Source of the DNA: a virus
Lineage: Duplodnaviria; Caudoviricetes
IMG/VR virus record: IMGVR_UViG_3300021560_000028
Location: 1 to 41,723 of that record
Length of the DNA stretch: 41,723 nucleotides
Reading direction: 5' to 3' (one strand)
The position numbers were made by a program, and so were the translations under genes. Positions 208 to 35,398 of this stretch are shown in pieces. The stretch's first letter is position 1, and every line of letters starts with the position of its first letter. Below the pieces are notes generated by a model, which ran no database searches, had not been told where the DNA came from, and saw nothing but the letters and a program-made list of their open reading frames with translations.

Positions 208-242
208 CCAAGGAAATCCGCCGGTGGGCTGACAATGGCTAA
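204..242 (+). pseudogene. Orphaned original 5' end of thyX (MTKEIRRWAD-NG*), interrupted by the HNH gene
   Basis: ATG at 204 encodes MTKEIRRWAD, near-identical to the ThyX N-terminus MTGKEIRRYAD at 663. Confidence 0.7.
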
Positions 243-666
243 GACCAAAGCCCATACGAACTACAAGCCAGCCGAAAGGAATCTAGGACATTACCAACGA
301 ATGCAATGCGTAAAGAATCGCGGAAAAGCTAATGAGTATCTATGTGCCAAATGCGATAGGAAAGCCAAGGACTGGGCACACATACACGGCGAATCCGGCG
401 ACGATCCATGGGCCGACTTCGTACCGCTATGTAGGCGATGTCATATGCAGTATGACGGCCATAACCAGAAGGGAGGGAACTCATCAGAAGCCAGATCTGA
501 AAGAATGAAGGCGATCACAACAAACAACTGGAATGATCCAGAATACCGTCAACATATGTCTGATGCTCATTACGGACAAGAAATTTCGACCGAAACAAGA
601 GCTAAGATATCAGCGGCACTCAAAGGAAAGCCCTGGTCCGAGGCAAGAAGGAAGGCACAGAAATGA
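235..666 (+). CDS. HNH-type homing endonuclease with C-terminal NUMOD3-like DNA-binding motifs
   Basis: CAKC...WAHIHG...LCRRCH zinc/HNH core and C-terminal STETRAKISAALKGK motif. More AT-rich than thyX and flanked by a duplicated thyX start. Confidence 0.75.
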   Translation: MAKTKAHTNYKPAERNLGHYQRMQCVKNRGKANEYLCAKCDRKAKDWAHIHGESGDDPWADFVPLCRRCHMQYDGHNQKGGNSSEARSERMKAITTNNWNDPEYRQHMSDAHYGQEISTETRAKISAALKGKPWSEARRKAQK

Positions 667-2245: not shown

Positions 2246-2790
2246 ACAAGAAAAACAACACAAGCGAAGGCTCTATCTGGGTCAAGAGCGAGCTATTGCC
2301 GGGCGGCTCGTACAACGTCACTCTGGACTTTACGCCGGACGACTCGATCACCCTTACCGACGAAGAGGCACTCCAGTACTCACTTGCGATACTGGAGGTT
2401 GCCCATATTGCCGAGTACGAGGCATCTATCCTCGCCCAGATGAAGGCAGCAGATATCAGCGAGACAACTGCTGCGCGGTTTATCGCGGACAACTTCCGGC
2501 CATACCGTCACCTACCGGATACCGGCACGCCGCTAGAGCTAATCCCCGGCATTAGTCAGCGGACCAAACAGCCATTCCTAGTAATCATCCTGCGCGGTGT
2601 CGAAGTCGGACAGTGGGACTTCAAGGATGCACGCGAACACGCCCAGGCAATCCTTGACGTCATCTGCGTAGCACGGCTCGACCAGGTTTACTACCACTCC
2701 CTGGCAGATCGCCTAGAGATGGCCGAGCCACAAGCCCGTACCATGGTCTCTCTGATCGGAAAGTTCAGGCCGAATGGAGTCATCTTATGA
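2242..2790 (+). CDS. Hypothetical protein; last sense codon is TTA overlapping the next ATG
   Basis: GTG 2242 overlaps the upstream TGA. Ends ATC TTA TGA. Confidence 0.7.
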   Translation: MNKKNNTSEGSIWVKSELLPGGSYNVTLDFTPDDSITLTDEEALQYSLAILEVAHIAEYEASILAQMKAADISETTAARFIADNFRPYRHLPDTGTPLELIPGISQRTKQPFLVIILRGVEVGQWDFKDAREHAQAILDVICVARLDQVYYHSLADRLEMAEPQARTMVSLIGKFRPNGVIL

Positions 2791-2921
2791 CTAGACGTAC
2801 GTACGACTGGCGCGATATACTAGTCTCGGGTATCATCCTAGCACTACTACTACTGCTATTGGTACTGTCAATAGCTTTGTCCGAACCGCCATATCATATA
2901 TCCGGAGGTGATCTATGGTGA
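2787..2921 (+). CDS. Small single-pass membrane protein (44 aa)
   Basis: MTRRTYDWRDILVSGIILALLLLLLVLSIALSEPPYHISGGDLW*. Fills the gap exactly with overlaps at both ends. Confidence 0.6.
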   Translation: MTRRTYDWRDILVSGIILALLLLLLVLSIALSEPPYHISGGDLW

Positions 2922-3862
2922 AGAACAAGATACGCTACGTATCACTTCACCACTTACACCATTCGACCTTCAGTCACGGTGATGGCCACAAGCTACCAGC
3001 TATCCACGTAGCGCGGGCTGTAGAGCTAGGCTATACCGCGCAAGCCCTTACAGAGCATGGCGGTACGTCTAGTCACTTCCAGTTCGAGCAGGCCGCCCTG
3101 AAGCTAGGGCTGAAGCCGATATTTGGGCTAGAGGCGTACTGCGGGCCGGTAGGCGAAAACCGTAGCCAATGGAAGTATCACCTCACGATCCTCGCGGAGA
3201 ACGCAAATGGATACCGAAACCTCAACCGCCTTGTCACACAGTCTTGGCGAGATCATCACTACCATCCGACAGTTTCTGGACAGAATCTGGTCGACAATCA
3301 CGAGAATCTTGTCGTACTTTCAGGATGCACTGGTAGCATGCTCGCATGCGCTCTTGTCGGAGGCAAGGGGATCGCCGATCCCACGTCTAGAGACGGTTAT
3401 GGATGGGATGACGCACGACGCGTCATCCGCCGTTTTGCCTCTCTATTTGGGGCCAATTACTACCTCGAAGTCCAGCCCTTCTACGAGCTTGAAAAGACCT
3501 GCCGCATCAATCCAGCTTACGAACGTCTCAGCCGGGAGACTGGAGTTCCACTTGTCGCAACGTGTGATGTCCACTACCCCAGACCAGCAGATTCTGAGAT
3601 GCAGGCTATACTCCACGCAGTACACCGAAAGAACCAATCCATAGACGACGCACTACGCGCCTGGAACTATGACGTCCCTATGACGTTCCCCGAGTCCGAC
3701 AAGCAACTCGGCGAACGCCTGATGAAGACCGGCCTATCCCGCGCCGCAGCATGGGAGGCTATCCTCAATACTGAGCGCATAGCCGAGCAATGTACGGTAA
3801 CCCTGCCAAAGGCAGAACGACTTACCTACCCAATCAAAGACTCCGACTGGGAGCCATGGTGA
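2915..3862 (+). CDS. dnaE: DNA polymerase III alpha (DnaE) N-terminal PHP-domain subunit; contains CAC-TTA-CAC candidate bypass site
   Basis: GGAGG SD. Motifs SLHH(LH)HSTFS.GDG, ALTEHG, KPIFGLEAY, HLTILA.N..GYRNL, LSGC, YYLEVQP, VATCDVHY. Confidence 0.9.
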   Translation: MVKNKIRYVSLHHLHHSTFSHGDGHKLPAIHVARAVELGYTAQALTEHGGTSSHFQFEQAALKLGLKPIFGLEAYCGPVGENRSQWKYHLTILAENANGYRNLNRLVTQSWRDHHYHPTVSGQNLVDNHENLVVLSGCTGSMLACALVGGKGIADPTSRDGYGWDDARRVIRRFASLFGANYYLEVQPFYELEKTCRINPAYERLSRETGVPLVATCDVHYPRPADSEMQAILHAVHRKNQSIDDALRAWNYDVPMTFPESDKQLGERLMKTGLSRAAAWEAILNTERIAEQCTVTLPKAERLTYPIKDSDWEPW

Positions 3863-4038
3863 AGCAGGACATCTACATCAGTCATGTCGTCGGCCTCTGT
3901 GCGATATGCGGTTTCTACATCATCGATACCGGCTACAGTGACGAGATGGATCATGAATTTCTTTTCAATGAGCTTTCCCTATACGGCCGGAATGACTGGT
4001 TCTTTAACGCATTCCATGGAAGCTGGGAAATTATATGA
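3856..4038 (+). CDS. Small hypothetical protein (60 aa, CxxC) between the two dnaE halves
   Basis: ATG 3856 overlaps the PHP stop, and its TGA overlaps the dnaE catalytic ATG (ATGA). Confidence 0.55.
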   Translation: MVKQDIYISHVVGLCAICGFYIIDTGYSDEMDHEFLFNELSLYGRNDWFFNAFHGSWEII

Positions 4039-6284
4039 GCGACTCTGATGATCTATTGTGGTACTGGCTTCGACAGGGCTGGAACTATCGCCGAATAGGC
4101 AGGCTACCGCAGGTCGAACAGGACTGGCACGGCGCGCGAATCCGCCGAGAGATGGATATGATCCTCGGCAAAGACCTAGCCGACTTCATGCTATTCACCT
4201 CCGACACGATCCGCTGGGCTAAGGACAATGATGTAGCGATAGGCCCCGGCCGGGGCAGCACCGCCGCGTCCGACGTAGCCTATATGACAAGGATCACCGA
4301 GATCAATCCATGGAAGTATCCGGGTATGATCTTTGAACGATTCCTTGACGTTACCCGACACGACCCGCCCGACATCGACGTCGACTGTTCTGACGAAGAA
4401 CGCTTCAAGGTCTATGACTACATCGCCTACAAGTACGGTGCGGAATGTGTCGGCCACATAGGCAACTTCGTCCGGTACCGTGCCAAGAATAGTCTTGCTG
4501 ACGTTTCGACTGTCTATCGCATACCGCTCTACGCAAAAGAAGCAGTAGCGAATCTAGCCATAGAGAGGTCGGGTGGCGACTCGCGAGCCGACGCTACGCT
4601 CGAAGACACTTTTGAGATGTTCCCGGCTGCGAAGGCAGTCCTTGATGAGTACCCTGACCTCGCAAAAGCAAGTCGCCTAGAGAGCGACGTACGCGGAATG
4701 TCCGTCCATGCTTGCGGCCTAATGGTAGCCAACTCTCCGCTCACCGACGTCTGCGCGGTATACGAGAAGGACGGAGAGCGTGTACTCTCAATCGACAAGT
4801 ATGACGCCGAGTATGTCGGCGTTCTCAAGCTAGACTTCCTGGGCCTATCGACTATGGGGATGATCTCTCGTTGTCTCCGGATGACCGGACTAACTCTGGA
4901 GGATCTATATGCCATACCGGATACTGATCCTAGAGCAATCGAGATATTCCGCTCTGGAGACGTCGTGGGAGTATTTCAGTTTGAAGGTAGAGCTACTCGG
5001 CTTGTCAACCGAGACGTTCATCCAGATCACTTCATGCATATCACGGACATCAATGCGCTATCGCGTCCTGGCCCTTTGTTTTCCGGACAGACCGCAGAGT
5101 ACATCGAAGTACGTCACGGTCGTAAACGAGCTACCCCTCTACACCCCATCGTGGATGAGATCACGAAGGACACCTACGGACAAATGATCTACCAGGAACA
5201 TATCCTCCGCTGTCTCAAAGAGGTAGGGGATCTGTCCTGGACGAACGTCCACCACATCCGGCGCATCATCGCGAAGAAAGCAGGCCAAGCCGCATTCCAG
5301 CAGAACTTCGATGAGTTCGCAGAGGGTGCGAAACGACTCCACAACATCGACCGGGAGATGGCCGAGAAGATCTGGAACCGGCTCGTAACCTCCGGCACTT
5401 ATGCCTTCAATATCGCGCACGCAGTATCCTACTCGATGCTAGCATTCTGGACGGCATGGCTAAAGGCAAACTATCCAGTCGAGTTCTACGCGGCGAGCCT
5501 GGCAAAAGCCACAGTAGCCGACACTCAGTTCCGTCTTATGCGTGACGCCCTAGCTCATAGCATAGACGTTAAGCCGCCATCACTACAGCTATCCCGCGCC
5601 ACCTGGCAAGCAGTGCCGAATGTCGGGCTAGTCGCCGGATGGCGTCAGATGCCAAAGGTCGGCCCGGCAATCGCAGAACGCATAGAGGCATTCGGTGGTC
5701 ACTATGGATTCGATGACTGGATTGAACTCAAGGCGATTCCCGGCCTAGGCGACAAGACTATCGCCCGTATGGAGGAGTGGACGCTAGCGAAAGACCCATT
5801 CGGGCTGTACCGGACGGAGAAGCGCCTATCGTCGGTCAGGCGATTCCTCAGGGGTCCGGGCAAGGGACTCGCTCCCCTCCCGACGCATAGCGGGGATCAG
5901 CTCGCCGCGATGACAGTAGACCAACATCATACCCACAAGATCTGGCGATTCGGTAAGCAAGTCATCTATATGGGGATGGTCAGAAAGGTCGAGTACAAAG
6001 ACATAGTCGAAGACGAACGGTCCCGTACCGGCAAGGAAGTGGAGGAGATCCTCAAGACCATCAAGCGCCCTGACCTCATCAAACGAGCTACCCTACACTG
6101 CTACGATGTAGGCGACGAAGAGGTATATGCTAGGGTCAACCGGTTCCGGTTCCCGACTATCCAGGGCAAGCTAGGGACAATCAAGATCAATCATGATGTA
6201 GTCATCATATCCGGCAACCGGATCTCCGGATTCGGCACGCCTATCACGGTAGATGAGATATGGGTTCTCGATCCTGATAATTGA
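4035..6284 (+). CDS. dnaE: DNA polymerase III alpha (DnaE) catalytic subunit (palm/fingers/HhH/OB)
   Basis: GPGRGS, FERFL, PDIDVD, KLDFLGL, GVFQFE, RPGP, IYQE, YAFNIAHA motifs. Confidence 0.95.
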   Translation: MSDSDDLLWYWLRQGWNYRRIGRLPQVEQDWHGARIRREMDMILGKDLADFMLFTSDTIRWAKDNDVAIGPGRGSTAASDVAYMTRITEINPWKYPGMIFERFLDVTRHDPPDIDVDCSDEERFKVYDYIAYKYGAECVGHIGNFVRYRAKNSLADVSTVYRIPLYAKEAVANLAIERSGGDSRADATLEDTFEMFPAAKAVLDEYPDLAKASRLESDVRGMSVHACGLMVANSPLTDVCAVYEKDGERVLSIDKYDAEYVGVLKLDFLGLSTMGMISRCLRMTGLTLEDLYAIPDTDPRAIEIFRSGDVVGVFQFEGRATRLVNRDVHPDHFMHITDINALSRPGPLFSGQTAEYIEVRHGRKRATPLHPIVDEITKDTYGQMIYQEHILRCLKEVGDLSWTNVHHIRRIIAKKAGQAAFQQNFDEFAEGAKRLHNIDREMAEKIWNRLVTSGTYAFNIAHAVSYSMLAFWTAWLKANYPVEFYAASLAKATVADTQFRLMRDALAHSIDVKPPSLQLSRATWQAVPNVGLVAGWRQMPKVGPAIAERIEAFGGHYGFDDWIELKAIPGLGDKTIARMEEWTLAKDPFGLYRTEKRLSSVRRFLRGPGKGLAPLPTHSGDQLAAMTVDQHHTHKIWRFGKQVIYMGMVRKVEYKDIVEDERSRTGKEVEEILKTIKRPDLIKRATLHCYDVGDEEVYARVNRFRFPTIQGKLGTIKINHDVVIISGNRISGFGTPITVDEIWVLDPDN

Positions 6285-32886: not shown

Positions 32887-34551
32887 GAAAAACTCCATAC
32901 TCTGCGCTTGCCGCTCTTGGCTGCCATAGCCCGGCGTTCCTTGTACGCTTTAGATCCGAGTACAAGCCGACGAGCATGCCTCGCGCCAATCATACAAACA
33001 CAGGCGTCGATTTTCTTTGGCGACTTAGGTGCTTCCTTACCAATACTTATGCCCCAGCGGTTCGGCCGACGCCGAGCATTAACAACGTGCCGTCCTAGCG
33101 CCGAGTCTCCATCATGCCAGAATACTGGATCACCCGGAGACTCGATTTCGCTAAGCACCATCTCGCATGCCTGCGTAAACTCCGCAGTATGCGAGCGCAT
33201 ATCCCATGCTACAGGCTGTGGATCACGCCCAGAAGGGACAGCCCATATATCAAGGCCCTCTTCAAACCACTCACGCCACGTAATCTTCGTTGACTCTTCC
33301 CACTCATTGACGTCCGCGAAGAATGCGCAAACATTCCACTTCTCTTGTGCCGACCGTATAGCAAAGTGGACTTCATCAACCGGTACATTACGCGTACCCA
33401 GCGGCTCCCAAACACCAAGAGTGAAAACGAAACCAGTTTCCACATGACATCCAACCAGTGCAGTAGCGTCATCAGTCCTCGATCCATCGAAGAACATAGT
33501 AATATCGTCGCCGTCATTGATCCTGAATTCTGGATCTGACAGTCGTGCCCACTTCTGCTGCGTGGTCCACGCATCCTCGGCCGACTCCGGCCAGTTTAGG
33601 TAGAATCGCTTGGACACATCTAGCGGCGTACGCGGCGAGAGGATACGATTCTCAACGATATCATCAGTATCAGCCCAGAAAGCATCGCCATACGCGAATT
33701 CAACCGCCTTGCGTATGGATGATACGTCATCGAAATCAACATCAGGAGGGGCCATTCGCGAATCATACAGGATCTTACCCTTCCCTTTGAGCTTGCCCTC
33801 TTCTTGCGACACCCACGCATCGAATGTAGTCTCGGCTACCGTCCCCGCGCCCGGCTCCCAGGCATTTGACGTCTCGATAATCCGCGAGCCGGACTTACCA
33901 ACATTACGGTCCATGACTTCGGCAAGCGCTATTCCTCCGTTGGTGGCAGTGAACGACTCGGTCTGATCAAGTATCGCAAAGGTGACAAGAGCACCCTCTT
34001 CGGTAGTTGGCGAACTCGTGATGACCATGAGTTGTCCTCCGCCTGGCACATGGAATATTGTCTTGCCAGCTTCGACATCATAGTCTCGCAGGATTCGCGA
34101 TTTCTTGGGCAGTAGCGCCCGCACCATCCGCATTGTGTTGACGTTGGCCTGGTCATGTGACGTTGCGCCAATCTGTACGAGCGGCATCGACACCGCTTTC
34201 CCAACGACGCCGCCCGGCGCGTCGGAGTCCCATCGCCAGAAGCGGACAGGCGCGAGTAGCTCGATCATCGCCAACACCGCGGCAAACGGAGACTTCCCGG
34301 CACCTTTTGGGTACCGGCGCACTCCGTGATAGAACATCCAGCGCCCCTCGGGCGTTAGCGCATACCACCAAAGTATGAATCGCACTTGCGATTCCGTGAA
34401 CTCCCACCGGTTCCCGGCGTCCGGCCCGTCTGGCTGCTTGAGGTAAAAGGTACTTGGATGCCCAGTGAATCGCTTCCCACCCAAGCGTAAGCTCAGGCAA
34501 GCCTTCAGGAAGCGTAACCAGTCTGTCACGTGGCGCTACCAATGTACTCAT
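32883..34551 (-). CDS. terL: Terminase large subunit; needs recoding (7-nt bypass or +1 shift) at TAC CTT TTA C CTC, 34452-34440
   Basis: 5' frame MSTLVAPRDRL..LTLGWEAIHWASKYL joins the 3' frame KQPDG...PKGAGKS (Walker A), FDGS..DD, KIDA. GAGGTG SD before ATG 34551. Confidence 0.9.
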
Positions 34552-34573: not shown

Positions 34574-35398
34574 CTACTTGGTAGCTACATACGTAGCGAG
34601 TTGCTTCATCACGGCCGCACTCGGCTTAGCGACCTGCGCCCTGCCGCCCTTGGCCGGATGAGCAGTCAGGCCCTTCGGCGGCTTTGGTGCTGCGATACGC
34701 CGCTGTGCCGCAACCTTGTGAGCTGCCTTCCGTACTGCGGTCTTCTTCCTTGCCGGTGCCTTCTTCTTGGCCTTAGCCTTAGCCTTGGCCGCCGCCTTCT
34801 TGTGGCTGTGCAGGTATATCCCGAGCCTAGCCAGCCCCATGCCTAGCCGGGCAGCCCCGCCGAGCGCACGCCCCGCCCCAAGCAGGCCGCGTCCCAGTCC
34901 GCCGCGACGGCGCTGTTGCCTACGCTGCTTGTCCCGCTTCTTGCGTTCCTCCTCGCGCTTCTTGTCGCTGGCCGCGCGTTCCTCACGCCTTGCCTTGTCG
35001 CGCTCAGCGAAGTCCTTGTTGCGTTGCTCCCGGTCAGCCGCCCTGGACGCATCCCGCGCGGCGTCACGCCGCCTGGTCTCCTCGGTGATGCTCTGATGTA
35101 GGGCTTCCTTCCGGGCCTGTAGCTGCTCCTGCCTAGCGACACCATACTGTGCCATCGCCTTGTGGAGTTCTTCTCGCGAGATCCCAGCTGACCTAGCTTC
35201 GCGGCCCGCAGTCTCGACTGCCATCCTGTCCTGTAGTATCTGATGACGCCGAAGAGCAGTCTTCTCATCGCGCGTAATCGTGTCCGCCGCGCCGCGTTCG
35301 ATTTTGCGAATGGCATTGCGGACGTGCTTGTGGTGTTCGCCGCCAAAGATCCAGCGCCCGTGGAACCCCCGGATCTCAGCCGGGTTGAAGTCAACCAT
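34574..35398 (-). CDS. Highly basic Arg/Lys/Ala-rich protein with N-terminal FNPxExR..GRW motif
   Basis: Lies between terS and terL; coiled-coil middle and histone-like KA-rich tail. Confidence 0.65.
   Translation of the reverse strand: MVDFNPAEIRGFHGRWIFGGEHHKHVRNAIRKIERGAADTITRDEKTALRRHQILQDRMAVETAGREARSAGISREELHKAMAQYGVARQEQLQARKEALHQSITEETRRRDAARDASRAADREQRNKDFAERDKARREERAASDKKREEERKKRDKQRRQQRRRGGLGRGLLGAGRALGGAARLGMGLARLGIYLHSHKKAAAKAKAKAKKKAPARKKTAVRKAAHKVAAQRRIAAPKPPKGLTAHPAKGGRAQVAKPSAAVMKQLATYVATK

What the first reader, a model, noticed from the sequence alone, without database searches (positions are those of the whole stretch)
2951..2959. In-frame CAC-TTA-CAC insert breaks the DnaE PHP metal-binding motif; a 6-nt hop restores it
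Seen: TCA CTT CAC CAC TTA CAC CAT TCG ACC TTC translates SLHHLHHSTFS. Known: DnaE PHP domains begin LHxHSx(Y/F)S. Hopping from CAC over TTA onto the identical CAC removes 6 nt and gives SLHHHSTFS, the canonical register. The insert is in frame, so it is invisible to ORF callers. It is the only TTA I found in either dnaE half and mirrors the terL site. Inference: a cryptic bypass element gating the PHP (probably proofreading/structural) subunit.
Basis: partly seen in the sequence, partly recalled or inferred. Interest (0 to 1): 0.85.

Follow-up and report, generated by a model that had tools for sequence, protein, structure and literature searches.

The report
In-frame ribosome hop in phage polymerase
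A soil phage's DNA-polymerase gene has six extra bases, led by a codon these phages almost never use inside genes, between two conserved histidines; relatives carry many other such inserts, often beside a likely DNA-cutting mobile gene, so ribosomes likely hop over it, a natural in-frame hop of a kind a 2016 review said had no known case for stop codons.

Summary
The sequence is real: CAC-TTA-CAC (2951-2959) adds LH to the HxH motif of the PHP half of a split DnaE. A contig from a second run has it unchanged, and a near-identical phage lacks it. It belongs to a family. Fifteen distinct relatives with DNA, this phage included, carry inserts of 2-9 nt in the first ~50 codons, at three conserved sites. 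Eleven begin with TTA, three with the stop TGA and one with TGT. All five in-frame Leu inserts begin with TTA. In this clade TTA is 15 of 7,566 Leu codons, never at a conserved internal position, and often where homologs stop. An HNH-like gene lies directly upstream in 9 of 13 insert-bearing versus 2 of 57 insert-free loci, though not in this window. Best reading: a homing-endonuclease immunity scar, as in T4 mobA/gene 60, made harmless by a likely constitutive matched-codon hop over an undecoded UUA. A regulated bldA gate is less likely. No protein evidence exists, and reading through as Leu with a tolerated insert is not excluded. Verdict: new variant of a known kind, interest 0.66.

The parts
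2915..3862 (+). dnaE N-half (PHP domain, 315 aa as read, 313 aa if hopped)
   Evidence: PF02811; fold matches to PolIII alpha; nine candidate metal ligands invariant in a 20-sequence alignment
2951..2953 (+). predicted take-off codon CAC (His13)
   Evidence: sequence
2954..2956 (+). TTA, the only in-frame TTA in either dnaE half; predicted empty A-site trigger
2957..2959 (+). predicted landing codon CAC; translation resumes at CAT 2960-2962, the second His of HxH
   Evidence: sequence; homologs have HHH
2904..2909 (+). Shine-Dalgarno GGAGGT of dnaE-N
   Evidence: sequence
2916..2952 (+). predicted hairpin ending at the take-off codon (z -2.9); present here and in L002 but not general
2858..2962 (+). 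swappable 5' patch: replaced by 93 other bases with an insert-free KIRYVSLHHH allele in a contig identical to the window from 2963 to 3300
2787..2921 (+). 44-aa hydrophobic ORF directly upstream. L001 has a similar-looking small ORF here, followed by a dead dnaE start and an HNH-like gene that the window lacks
4035..6284 (+). dnaE C-half (polymerase NTPase and finger domains), no TTA
34440..34449 (-). terL 7-nt frame-changing gap: CTT (34449-34447) TTA C CTC (34442-34440); terL starts at ATG 34551
235..666 (+). HNH-like/NUMOD3 ORF 2.2 kb upstream, related to the HNH-like gene beside insert-bearing dnaE in L001; link to this site not shown
   Evidence: 43% over 46 aa, E 4e-11

Best explanation
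The six extra bases sit between two invariant histidines of the polymerase's PHP domain and are likely a scar that protected the gene from a homing endonuclease, and ribosomes likely skip them by stalling on an undecoded UUA and re-pairing their histidine tRNA on the identical CAC six bases on. Shown: the insert, its position, its absence from close relatives, 14 further sibling inserts (10 TTA-led, 3 TGA-led, 1 TGT-led), the stop-like use of TTA in the clade, the link to an upstream HNH-like gene, and one locus (L001) where a dead insert-free gene start lies before the HNH-like gene and a new TTA-bearing start after it. Inferred: an HNH nuclease cuts the conserved HxH or TEHG coding stretch, and the mobile cassette supplies a replacement 5' end whose insert blocks re-cutting. 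Also inferred: UUA is poorly or not decoded during infection, so peptidyl-tRNA(His) on CAC-13 slides +6 and resumes at CAT, giving canonical SLHHHSTFS. Ribosomes that fail to hop would drop off with a 13-residue peptide. The hop would be constitutive and would only tax PHP-subunit yield. In this window the nuclease gene is absent and the scar remains.
For: (1) All 5 in-frame Leu inserts with DNA begin with TTA: window, L001 CAT TTA CAT, L002 CAC TTA CAC, L004 GGT TTA CTC GGC, L194 TTC TTA GGC. TTA is 15 of 7,566 Leu codons in the clade; chance for three independent events is about 8e-9. L194 was a prediction made from the protein before its DNA was fetched. (2) Out-of-frame siblings at the same motifs must be recoded: +2 (L011, L056, L140), +4 (L148), +7 (L018, L051). 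(3) In-frame stop versions exist: GGT TGA GGT (L173 group) and GGT TGA GGC (L177), plus +7 GGT TGA G AGC (L181). TTA is used more freely in these phages: 15 of 219 Leu in L173, 3 of 262 in L177, 4 of 266 in L181. (4) Of 15 in-frame TTAs in 476 called genes with homologs: 3 are these inserts, 10 lie at or past the end of homology (7 exactly where at least one homolog stops), 2 are in unaligned N-terminal extensions, and none sits at a conserved internal Leu. (5) In the alignment of homologs (those of 250 aa or more among 148 held), the only inserts in blocks with flank conservation above 0.8 are HL, GL, GLL and L. (6) An HNH-like ORF lies directly upstream in 9 of 13 insert clusters and 2 of 57 insert-free clusters; Fisher p 5e-7, or 2e-6 counting one other endonuclease. 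(7) L001 footprint. (8) Recombination breakpoint exactly at 2963. HL alleles fall in about 9 separate places on the tree, most with insert-free sisters. (9) The gene is alive: dN/dS 0.066 downstream of the insert, window versus L001. (10) Precedents: T4 mobA/gene 60 (bioRxiv 10.1101/2022.08.31.505936, passages) and Hau3 terL (PMC10732093, sections 3.4, 3.5 and the closing section).
Against: No protein, ribosome-profiling or host data. The window, L002, L056 and L051 have no HNH gene directly upstream (L051 has one directly downstream), and L194 shows none by eye. The window's terL gap has no endonuclease directly beside it. The dead-start footprint was found in only 1 of 13 insert loci. The Fisher test ignores relatedness, and some loci were fetched because they carried inserts. 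Most 'HNH-like' calls rest on PHROG families of unknown function (4160, 22195) plus Pfam HNH hits below cut-off. Several siblings lack a perfect landing codon (TCT to TTT, CAT to TAC, GGA to GGC, GGT to AGC, TTC to TTA). L142 has TGT, not TTA. CAC/CAC identity is weak evidence on its own, because both His codons share one tRNA (established knowledge). No general stimulatory hairpin was found (p 0.09 and 0.025). HHLHH recurs in 14 of 197 proteins held, which tolerance of the read-through protein could also explain.
Confidence: 0.6

Rival explanations
1. Regulated gate (first reader; Hau3 model): the level of host tRNA-Leu(UAA) decides between the hopped, active PHP subunit and an inactive +LH form, timing phage replication to host growth phase.
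For: Two essential genes of the window (dnaE-N, terL) carry TTA-led inserts. TTA is specifically avoided. UUA-triggered bypass has experimental support for Hau3 terL (PMC10732093). A scar could later be co-opted for regulation.
Against: Most relatives have neither insert: 72 of 86 dnaE-N clusters are insert-free, and 4 of 4 related terL genes are intact. The same sites take TGA instead. TTA stands where homologs stop. No PF00589 or PF07508 integrase in 5 records, 3 of them at least 90% complete. The host is unknown, and bldA-type control may be limited to Streptomycineae (PMC4255298, passages).
Confidence: 0.15
2. No hop at this site: UUA is slowly read as Leu and the 2-residue insert is tolerated (re-registered His ligands, or a PHP that only needs to be structural). 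It may still be an endonuclease scar.
For: The insert is in frame. HHLHH recurs in 14 of 197 proteins held. The +3 allele L194 has no matched landing codon. The +LH form still folds as a PolIII-alpha PHP in prediction (VIA Z 28.0, rmsd 3.2, 277 aligned to 2hqa).
Against: It does not explain why every inserted Leu is TTA. TTA never occupies a conserved internal Leu in 7,566. The out-of-frame and TGA siblings cannot be read through this way. HxH directly before S/T is otherwise kept, and all nine candidate ligands are invariant.
Confidence: 0.17
3. Broken gene or sequencing artefact.
For: Only the odd residue pair.
Against: Identical in contigs from two runs. Recurs in diverged phages. dN/dS 0.07 downstream.
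Confidence: 0.02
4. Another recoding route: UUA is a true fourth termination signal or unassigned codon in the host, so this is formally a stop-hop, or a mis-paired tRNA reads it while the out-of-frame siblings use -1/+1 frameshifts.
For: TTA replaces stop codons at gene ends in 7 of 15 cases. TGA is interchangeable with it at these sites. This is compatible with the best explanation and differs only in why UUA is empty.
Against: No host genome could be examined. Four of the terminal TTAs are followed directly by TGA. My one search for UUA as stop or unassigned in actinobacteria returned two papers, neither showing it in the parts I saw.
Confidence: 0.06

Closest known systems
UUA-led short bypass in the large terminase of Streptomyces phage phiHau3, StrepC.1 and S. 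catenulae prophages (Smith 2013, not read, known only as cited; Antonov 2023, PMC10732093, sections 3.4, 3.5, closing section and passages read)
   Same: UUA right after the take-off codon; short insert in a conserved junction of an essential gene; landing codon a few bases on. The window's own terL has a 7-nt gap of this type.
   Different: This site is in frame (+6) and in a DNA polymerase ('dnaE' 0 occurrences in that paper's main text; its supplement was not read). It is tied to HNH-like genes ('homing' 0 occurrences). It has TGA-led siblings. No integrase was found in the relatives searched, and the host is unknown.
Phage T4 mobA / gene 60 mobile bypass cassette (bioRxiv 10.1101/2022.08.31.505936, passages read)
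   Same: HNH endonuclease plus a bypassed insert in a conserved stretch of a replication gene; an element-supplied replacement of the target region (L001); loss of the nuclease with the insert kept; repeated independent spread.
   Different: Gap of 2-9 nt rather than 50 nt; trigger UUA or UGA; no conserved stem-loop found; too near the start for a long nascent-peptide signal; inserts at three sites in many forms; the gene is not split by the element at this site.
Magnusiomyces capitatus mitochondrial byps (PMC5009743, passages read)
   Same: An unused codon in the A-site triggers context-poor hops over inserts, with imperfect take-off/landing matches in some cases.
   Different: Bacteriophage on bacterial ribosomes; much shorter inserts; includes in-frame cases.
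Synthetic or accidental in-frame hops in E. coli (Weiss 1987; Kane 1992; seen only as reference titles)
   Same: +6 matched-codon hop over a stop or hungry codon giving a product two residues shorter.
   Different: Here natural and recurrent. The 2016 review says no natural occurrences of in-frame stop hopping were known.
Split DnaE of actinophages; PHP exonuclease of M. tuberculosis DnaE1 (PMC5636811, passages read)
   Same: A ~310-aa DnaE-like PHP gene occurs in cultured Microbacterium, Gordonia and Mycobacterium phages (about 47% identity). Five His, three acidic residues and one Cys are invariant, the same make-up as the trinuclear zinc site.
   Different: Carries the insert between the first two His; activity untested.

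Membership tests
Hau3-type UUA bypass | UUA directly 3' of the take-off codon | tested here: met
   CAC TTA at 2951-2956
Hau3-type UUA bypass | matching landing codon within ~10 nt that restores the conserved protein | tested here: met
   CAC 2957-2959; homologs HHH
Hau3-type UUA bypass | insert changes the reading frame | tested here: not met
   +6 here; met for the window's terL (+7) and six TTA-led siblings
Hau3-type UUA bypass | 5' stem-loop and internal SD stimulators | tested here: inconclusive
   hairpin z -2.9 here and -2.7 in L002, but not general; internal SD not tested apart from the gene's own
Hau3-type UUA bypass | temperate phage of a bldA-regulated Streptomyces host | tested here: inconclusive
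   no PF00589 or PF07508 in 5 records; no prophage copy in an actinobacterial genome; host not identified
Hau3-type UUA bypass | junction peptide shown by mass spectrometry | not testable with these tools
   no protein data
T4 mobA/gene 60 cassette | homing endonuclease gene next to the bypass site, in this window | tested here: not met
   upstream neighbours are a 44-aa hydrophobic ORF and a 190-aa ORF with no family hit; nearest HNH-like ORF is 2.2 kb away
T4 mobA/gene 60 cassette | endonuclease gene travels with the insert across relatives | tested here: met
   9 of 13 versus 2 of 57; not corrected for relatedness
T4 mobA/gene 60 cassette | element supplies a replacement copy of the target region | tested here: inconclusive
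   clear in L001; remnant found in 1 of 13
T4 mobA/gene 60 cassette | insert blocks nicking by the nuclease | not testable with these tools
   needs a cleavage assay
T4 mobA/gene 60 cassette | 50-nt gap with stop codon, stem-loops and nascent-peptide signal | tested here: not met
   6-nt gap at codon 14
DnaE PHP exonuclease | nine ligands: 5 His, 3 Asp/Glu, 1 Cys | tested here: met
   H11 H13 D20 H45 E70 H86 C135 D215 H217 (P0001 numbering) invariant in 20 sequences; make-up; the one-to-one mapping of the His and Cys residues to Mtb numbers is recalled
DnaE PHP exonuclease | 3'-5' exonuclease activity | not testable with these tools
   no assay

The most novel reading that the evidence does not exclude
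These phages use natural, efficient in-frame ribosome hops over either UUA or UGA as a general way for homing endonucleases to mark their conserved targets invisibly. In this clade UUA works as a fourth stop or unassigned codon. If so, real proteins differ from annotated in-frame translations across many actinophages.
Probability: 0.35. Interest if true: 0.85.

Novelty: new variant of a known kind. Interest (0 to 1): 0.66.

Why it matters
A 2016 review states that no natural in-frame stop hop was known (PMC5009743). The only natural short UUA bypass in print that I found is Hau3-type terL (searches). [quoted passage not shown] That makes the question directly testable. It also offers a non-regulatory origin (endonuclease immunity) for UUA gaps, and shows that such events hide in ORFs that look intact.

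Tried and rejected
AlphaFold2 of the insert-free and +LH forms: both low-confidence at the motif (pLDDT about 52-54), so it cannot say whether the insert breaks the site. Host identification failed: no homolog in the bacterial genome collection by protein, six hits in non-actinobacterial records by pattern, not used, and cultured phage matches are under 60% identity, the top rows all actinophages. No RNA holder listed. No tRNA genes in the window or in 18 stretches of relatives. A general hairpin stimulator is not supported. A first genome-wide TTA survey was polluted by antisense frames and discarded; it was replaced, which rests on my own simple gene caller and missed G001's dnaE insert through a late start call. 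The GAG version of the TEHG scan found 0, and the GAA version found 10, of which one (L175) was a chance match. The metagenome pattern needed GAG and CTN codons, so it saw perhaps half of the alleles; 5 of its 9 hits had inserts. The viral enumeration stopped at 119 of about 130 stretches. Eight loci (L145, L150-L155, L175) were left out of the cluster count as distant or chance matches. L194 was found later and is not in the Fisher table. DNA for the more distant HHLHH proteins (P0021, P0045, P0086, P0105, P0004, P0006, P0168) could not be obtained, so their codons are unknown. Artefact and pseudogene readings were rejected.

Full report
Observation. Window 2942-2971 reads TCA CTT CAC CAC TTA CAC CAT TCG ACC TTC (SLHHLHHSTFS) in ORF 2915-3862. 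This ORF is the PHP half of a split DnaE, and the polymerase half is 4035-6284. The TTA is the only one in frame in either half. Contigs from two soil runs span the site with no differences. The window is a 41.7-kb, about 64% complete virus record. Its best cultured matches are actinophages at about 47-50% identity, and the host is unknown.

The insert is an insert. Of the 120 listed among 436 homologs, 69 read HHH, 16 HGH, 1 HAH and 6 HHLHH, and 28 were not matched by the regex. P0001 is 99% identical and lacks LH. A contig in run X3 is identical to the window from 2963 to 3300 but carries a different 93-nt patch in place of 2858-2962, ending AAG ATC AGG TAC GTG AGC CTA CAC CAT CAC, which is insert-free. 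A recombination breakpoint therefore falls exactly at the site. In a 20-sequence alignment H11, H13, D20, H45, E70, H86, C135, D215 and H217 are invariant. That is five His, three acids and one Cys, the make-up of the trinuclear zinc site of Mtb DnaE1 (PMC5636811, passages). The insert lies between the first two His. Neither register of LHHLHHS gives HxH directly before S (sequence). AlphaFold was uninformative here.

It is one of a family. Pattern scans gave 165 locus hits that collapse to 86 distinct clusters, 14 with an insert; a later targeted scan added a fifteenth. At HxH the in-frame alleles are +6 CAC TTA CAC (window, L002) and CAT TTA CAT (L001). The out-of-frame alleles there are +2 TCT TTA CG/CC (L011, L056, L140), +4 CAT TTA C AGC (L148) and +5 TCT TG TCC (L142, no TTA). 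At TEHG they are +9 GGT TTA CTC GGC (L004), +7 GGC TTA C GGT (L018), +7 GGA TTA T GGC (L051), +6 GGT TGA GGT (L173 group), +6 GGT TGA GGC (L177) and +7 GGT TGA G AGC (L181). At FSFGDG there is +3 TTC TTA GGC (L194), whose TTA I predicted from the protein before fetching the DNA. In all, 11 are TTA-led, 3 TGA-led and 1 TGT-led, and all 5 in-frame Leu inserts begin with TTA. HL alleles fall in about nine places on a tree built from the downstream part, most beside insert-free sisters. One 90% cluster holds both an HL and a TEHG-LG allele. Downstream of the inserts the gene is under purifying selection: dN/dS 0.066 for window versus L001, and 0.07-0.17 over nine pairs.

What TTA means here. TTA is 2 of 761 Leu codons in the window's called genes, although CTA and ATA are common. 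Across 476 called genes with homologs in 13 genome or locus sets (7,566 Leu) there are 15 TTAs. Three are these inserts, ten lie at or beyond the end of homology (seven exactly where a homolog has its stop, four directly before TGA), two are in unaligned N-terminal extensions, and none is at a conserved internal Leu (my own gene caller). The TGA-led phages use TTA more freely. TTA thus behaves as a codon on which translation ends or stalls, and TGA is its equivalent at these sites. None of these phages showed a tRNA gene.

Why the inserts are there. The ORF directly upstream of dnaE-N is HNH-like in 9 of 13 insert clusters with enough upstream DNA and in 2 of 57 insert-free ones (3 with one other endonuclease); Fisher p 5e-7. 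This is not corrected for relatedness, and most calls rest on PHROG 4160/22195 plus weak Pfam HNH hits. In L001, the closest relative with such a gene, a dead insert-free start (MRYVSLHHHS) lies before the HNH-like gene and a new SD, start and TTA-bearing motif after it; this footprint was seen in 1 of 13. The arrangement parallels T4 mobA/gene 60, where the bypassed insert protects against the element's own nuclease and often outlasts it (bioRxiv 10.1101/2022.08.31.505936, passages). The window itself has no nuclease gene at this position. A related HNH-like/NUMOD3 ORF lies 2.2 kb upstream.

Mechanism. Inferred: with peptidyl-tRNA(His) on CAC-13 and UUA unfilled, the ribosome slides 6 nt, re-pairs on CAC and resumes at CAT, giving the canonical motif; failures abort early. 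A hairpin ending at the take-off codon is predicted here (z -2.9) and in L002 (z -2.7), but not across insert alleles. I give 0.60 to scar plus constitutive hop and 0.15 to a tRNA-regulated gate. Most relatives lack the inserts in both dnaE and terL, and no integrase was found in five records. I give 0.17 to read-through as Leu with tolerance, 0.06 to other recoding and 0.02 to artefact.

Comparison and novelty. It works like the Hau3 terL UUA bypass (PMC10732093) and like the T4 cassette, but fails a defining feature of each: a frame change for the first, and an adjacent nuclease and 50-nt gap for the second. The window's terL has a Hau3-like 7-nt gap. Five literature searches returned no report of such inserts in a phage DnaE or of natural in-frame UUA hops; most hits were seen as listings and abstract starts only. 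The library lacks most subscription papers, Smith 2013 was not read, and no supplements were read; those of PMC10732093 and the bioRxiv preprint may bear on this. The 2016 review says no natural in-frame stop hopping was known. Earlier notes of this scan describe TTA-led gaps in other genes of other phages. They prompted my tests of the nuclease link and of terminal TTA and are not counted as support. Verdict: new variant of a known kind, interest 0.66.

Noticed in passing
window 34449-34440, minus strand: terL is split by a 7-nt gap, CTT TTA C CTC, after codon 35; four relatives are intact there. ORF callers give a wrong N-terminus.
   Followed up: yes
L173 (also L174, L179, L180, L026), L177, L181, at TEHG of dnaE-N: In-frame GGT TGA GGT/GGC and +7 GGT TGA G AGC: candidate natural stop-hops, each directly downstream of an HNH or HNH-like gene.
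   Followed up: partly
L001 6520-7260: Dead duplicate of the dnaE-N start upstream of an HNH-like gene, with a new TTA-bearing start downstream: footprint of a homing event.
   Followed up: yes
G001 (L161) dnaE C-half codon 752; G008 (L187, L189); L006; L007; L010: TTA stands where homologs have their stop codon, some overlapping a following ATG (TTATG).
   Followed up: partly
L142 around 1110-1125: +5 insert TCT TG TCC with TGT in the A-site, beside an HNH-like gene; the one insert not led by TTA or TGA. Unexplained.
   Followed up: no
L194 dnaE-N codon 16: Single inserted TTA codon (TTC TTA GGC) with no matched landing codon.
   Followed up: partly
proteins P0039, P0052, P0169, P0170 and about 11 called from MALTEHGG: Garbled or truncated N-termini suggest more out-of-frame inserts at the HxH motif; DNA not available.
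   Followed up: no
window 235-666 and 663-1556: HNH-like/NUMOD3 ORF directly before a ThyX-like gene; may be a separate homing element.
   Followed up: partly
window 34574-35398, minus strand: 274-aa basic, Lys/Ala-rich ORF between terS and terL with no Pfam, PHROG or NCBIfam hit.
   Followed up: partly
L007 and L055: HNH-like gene directly upstream of dnaE-N but no insert at either motif.
   Followed up: no
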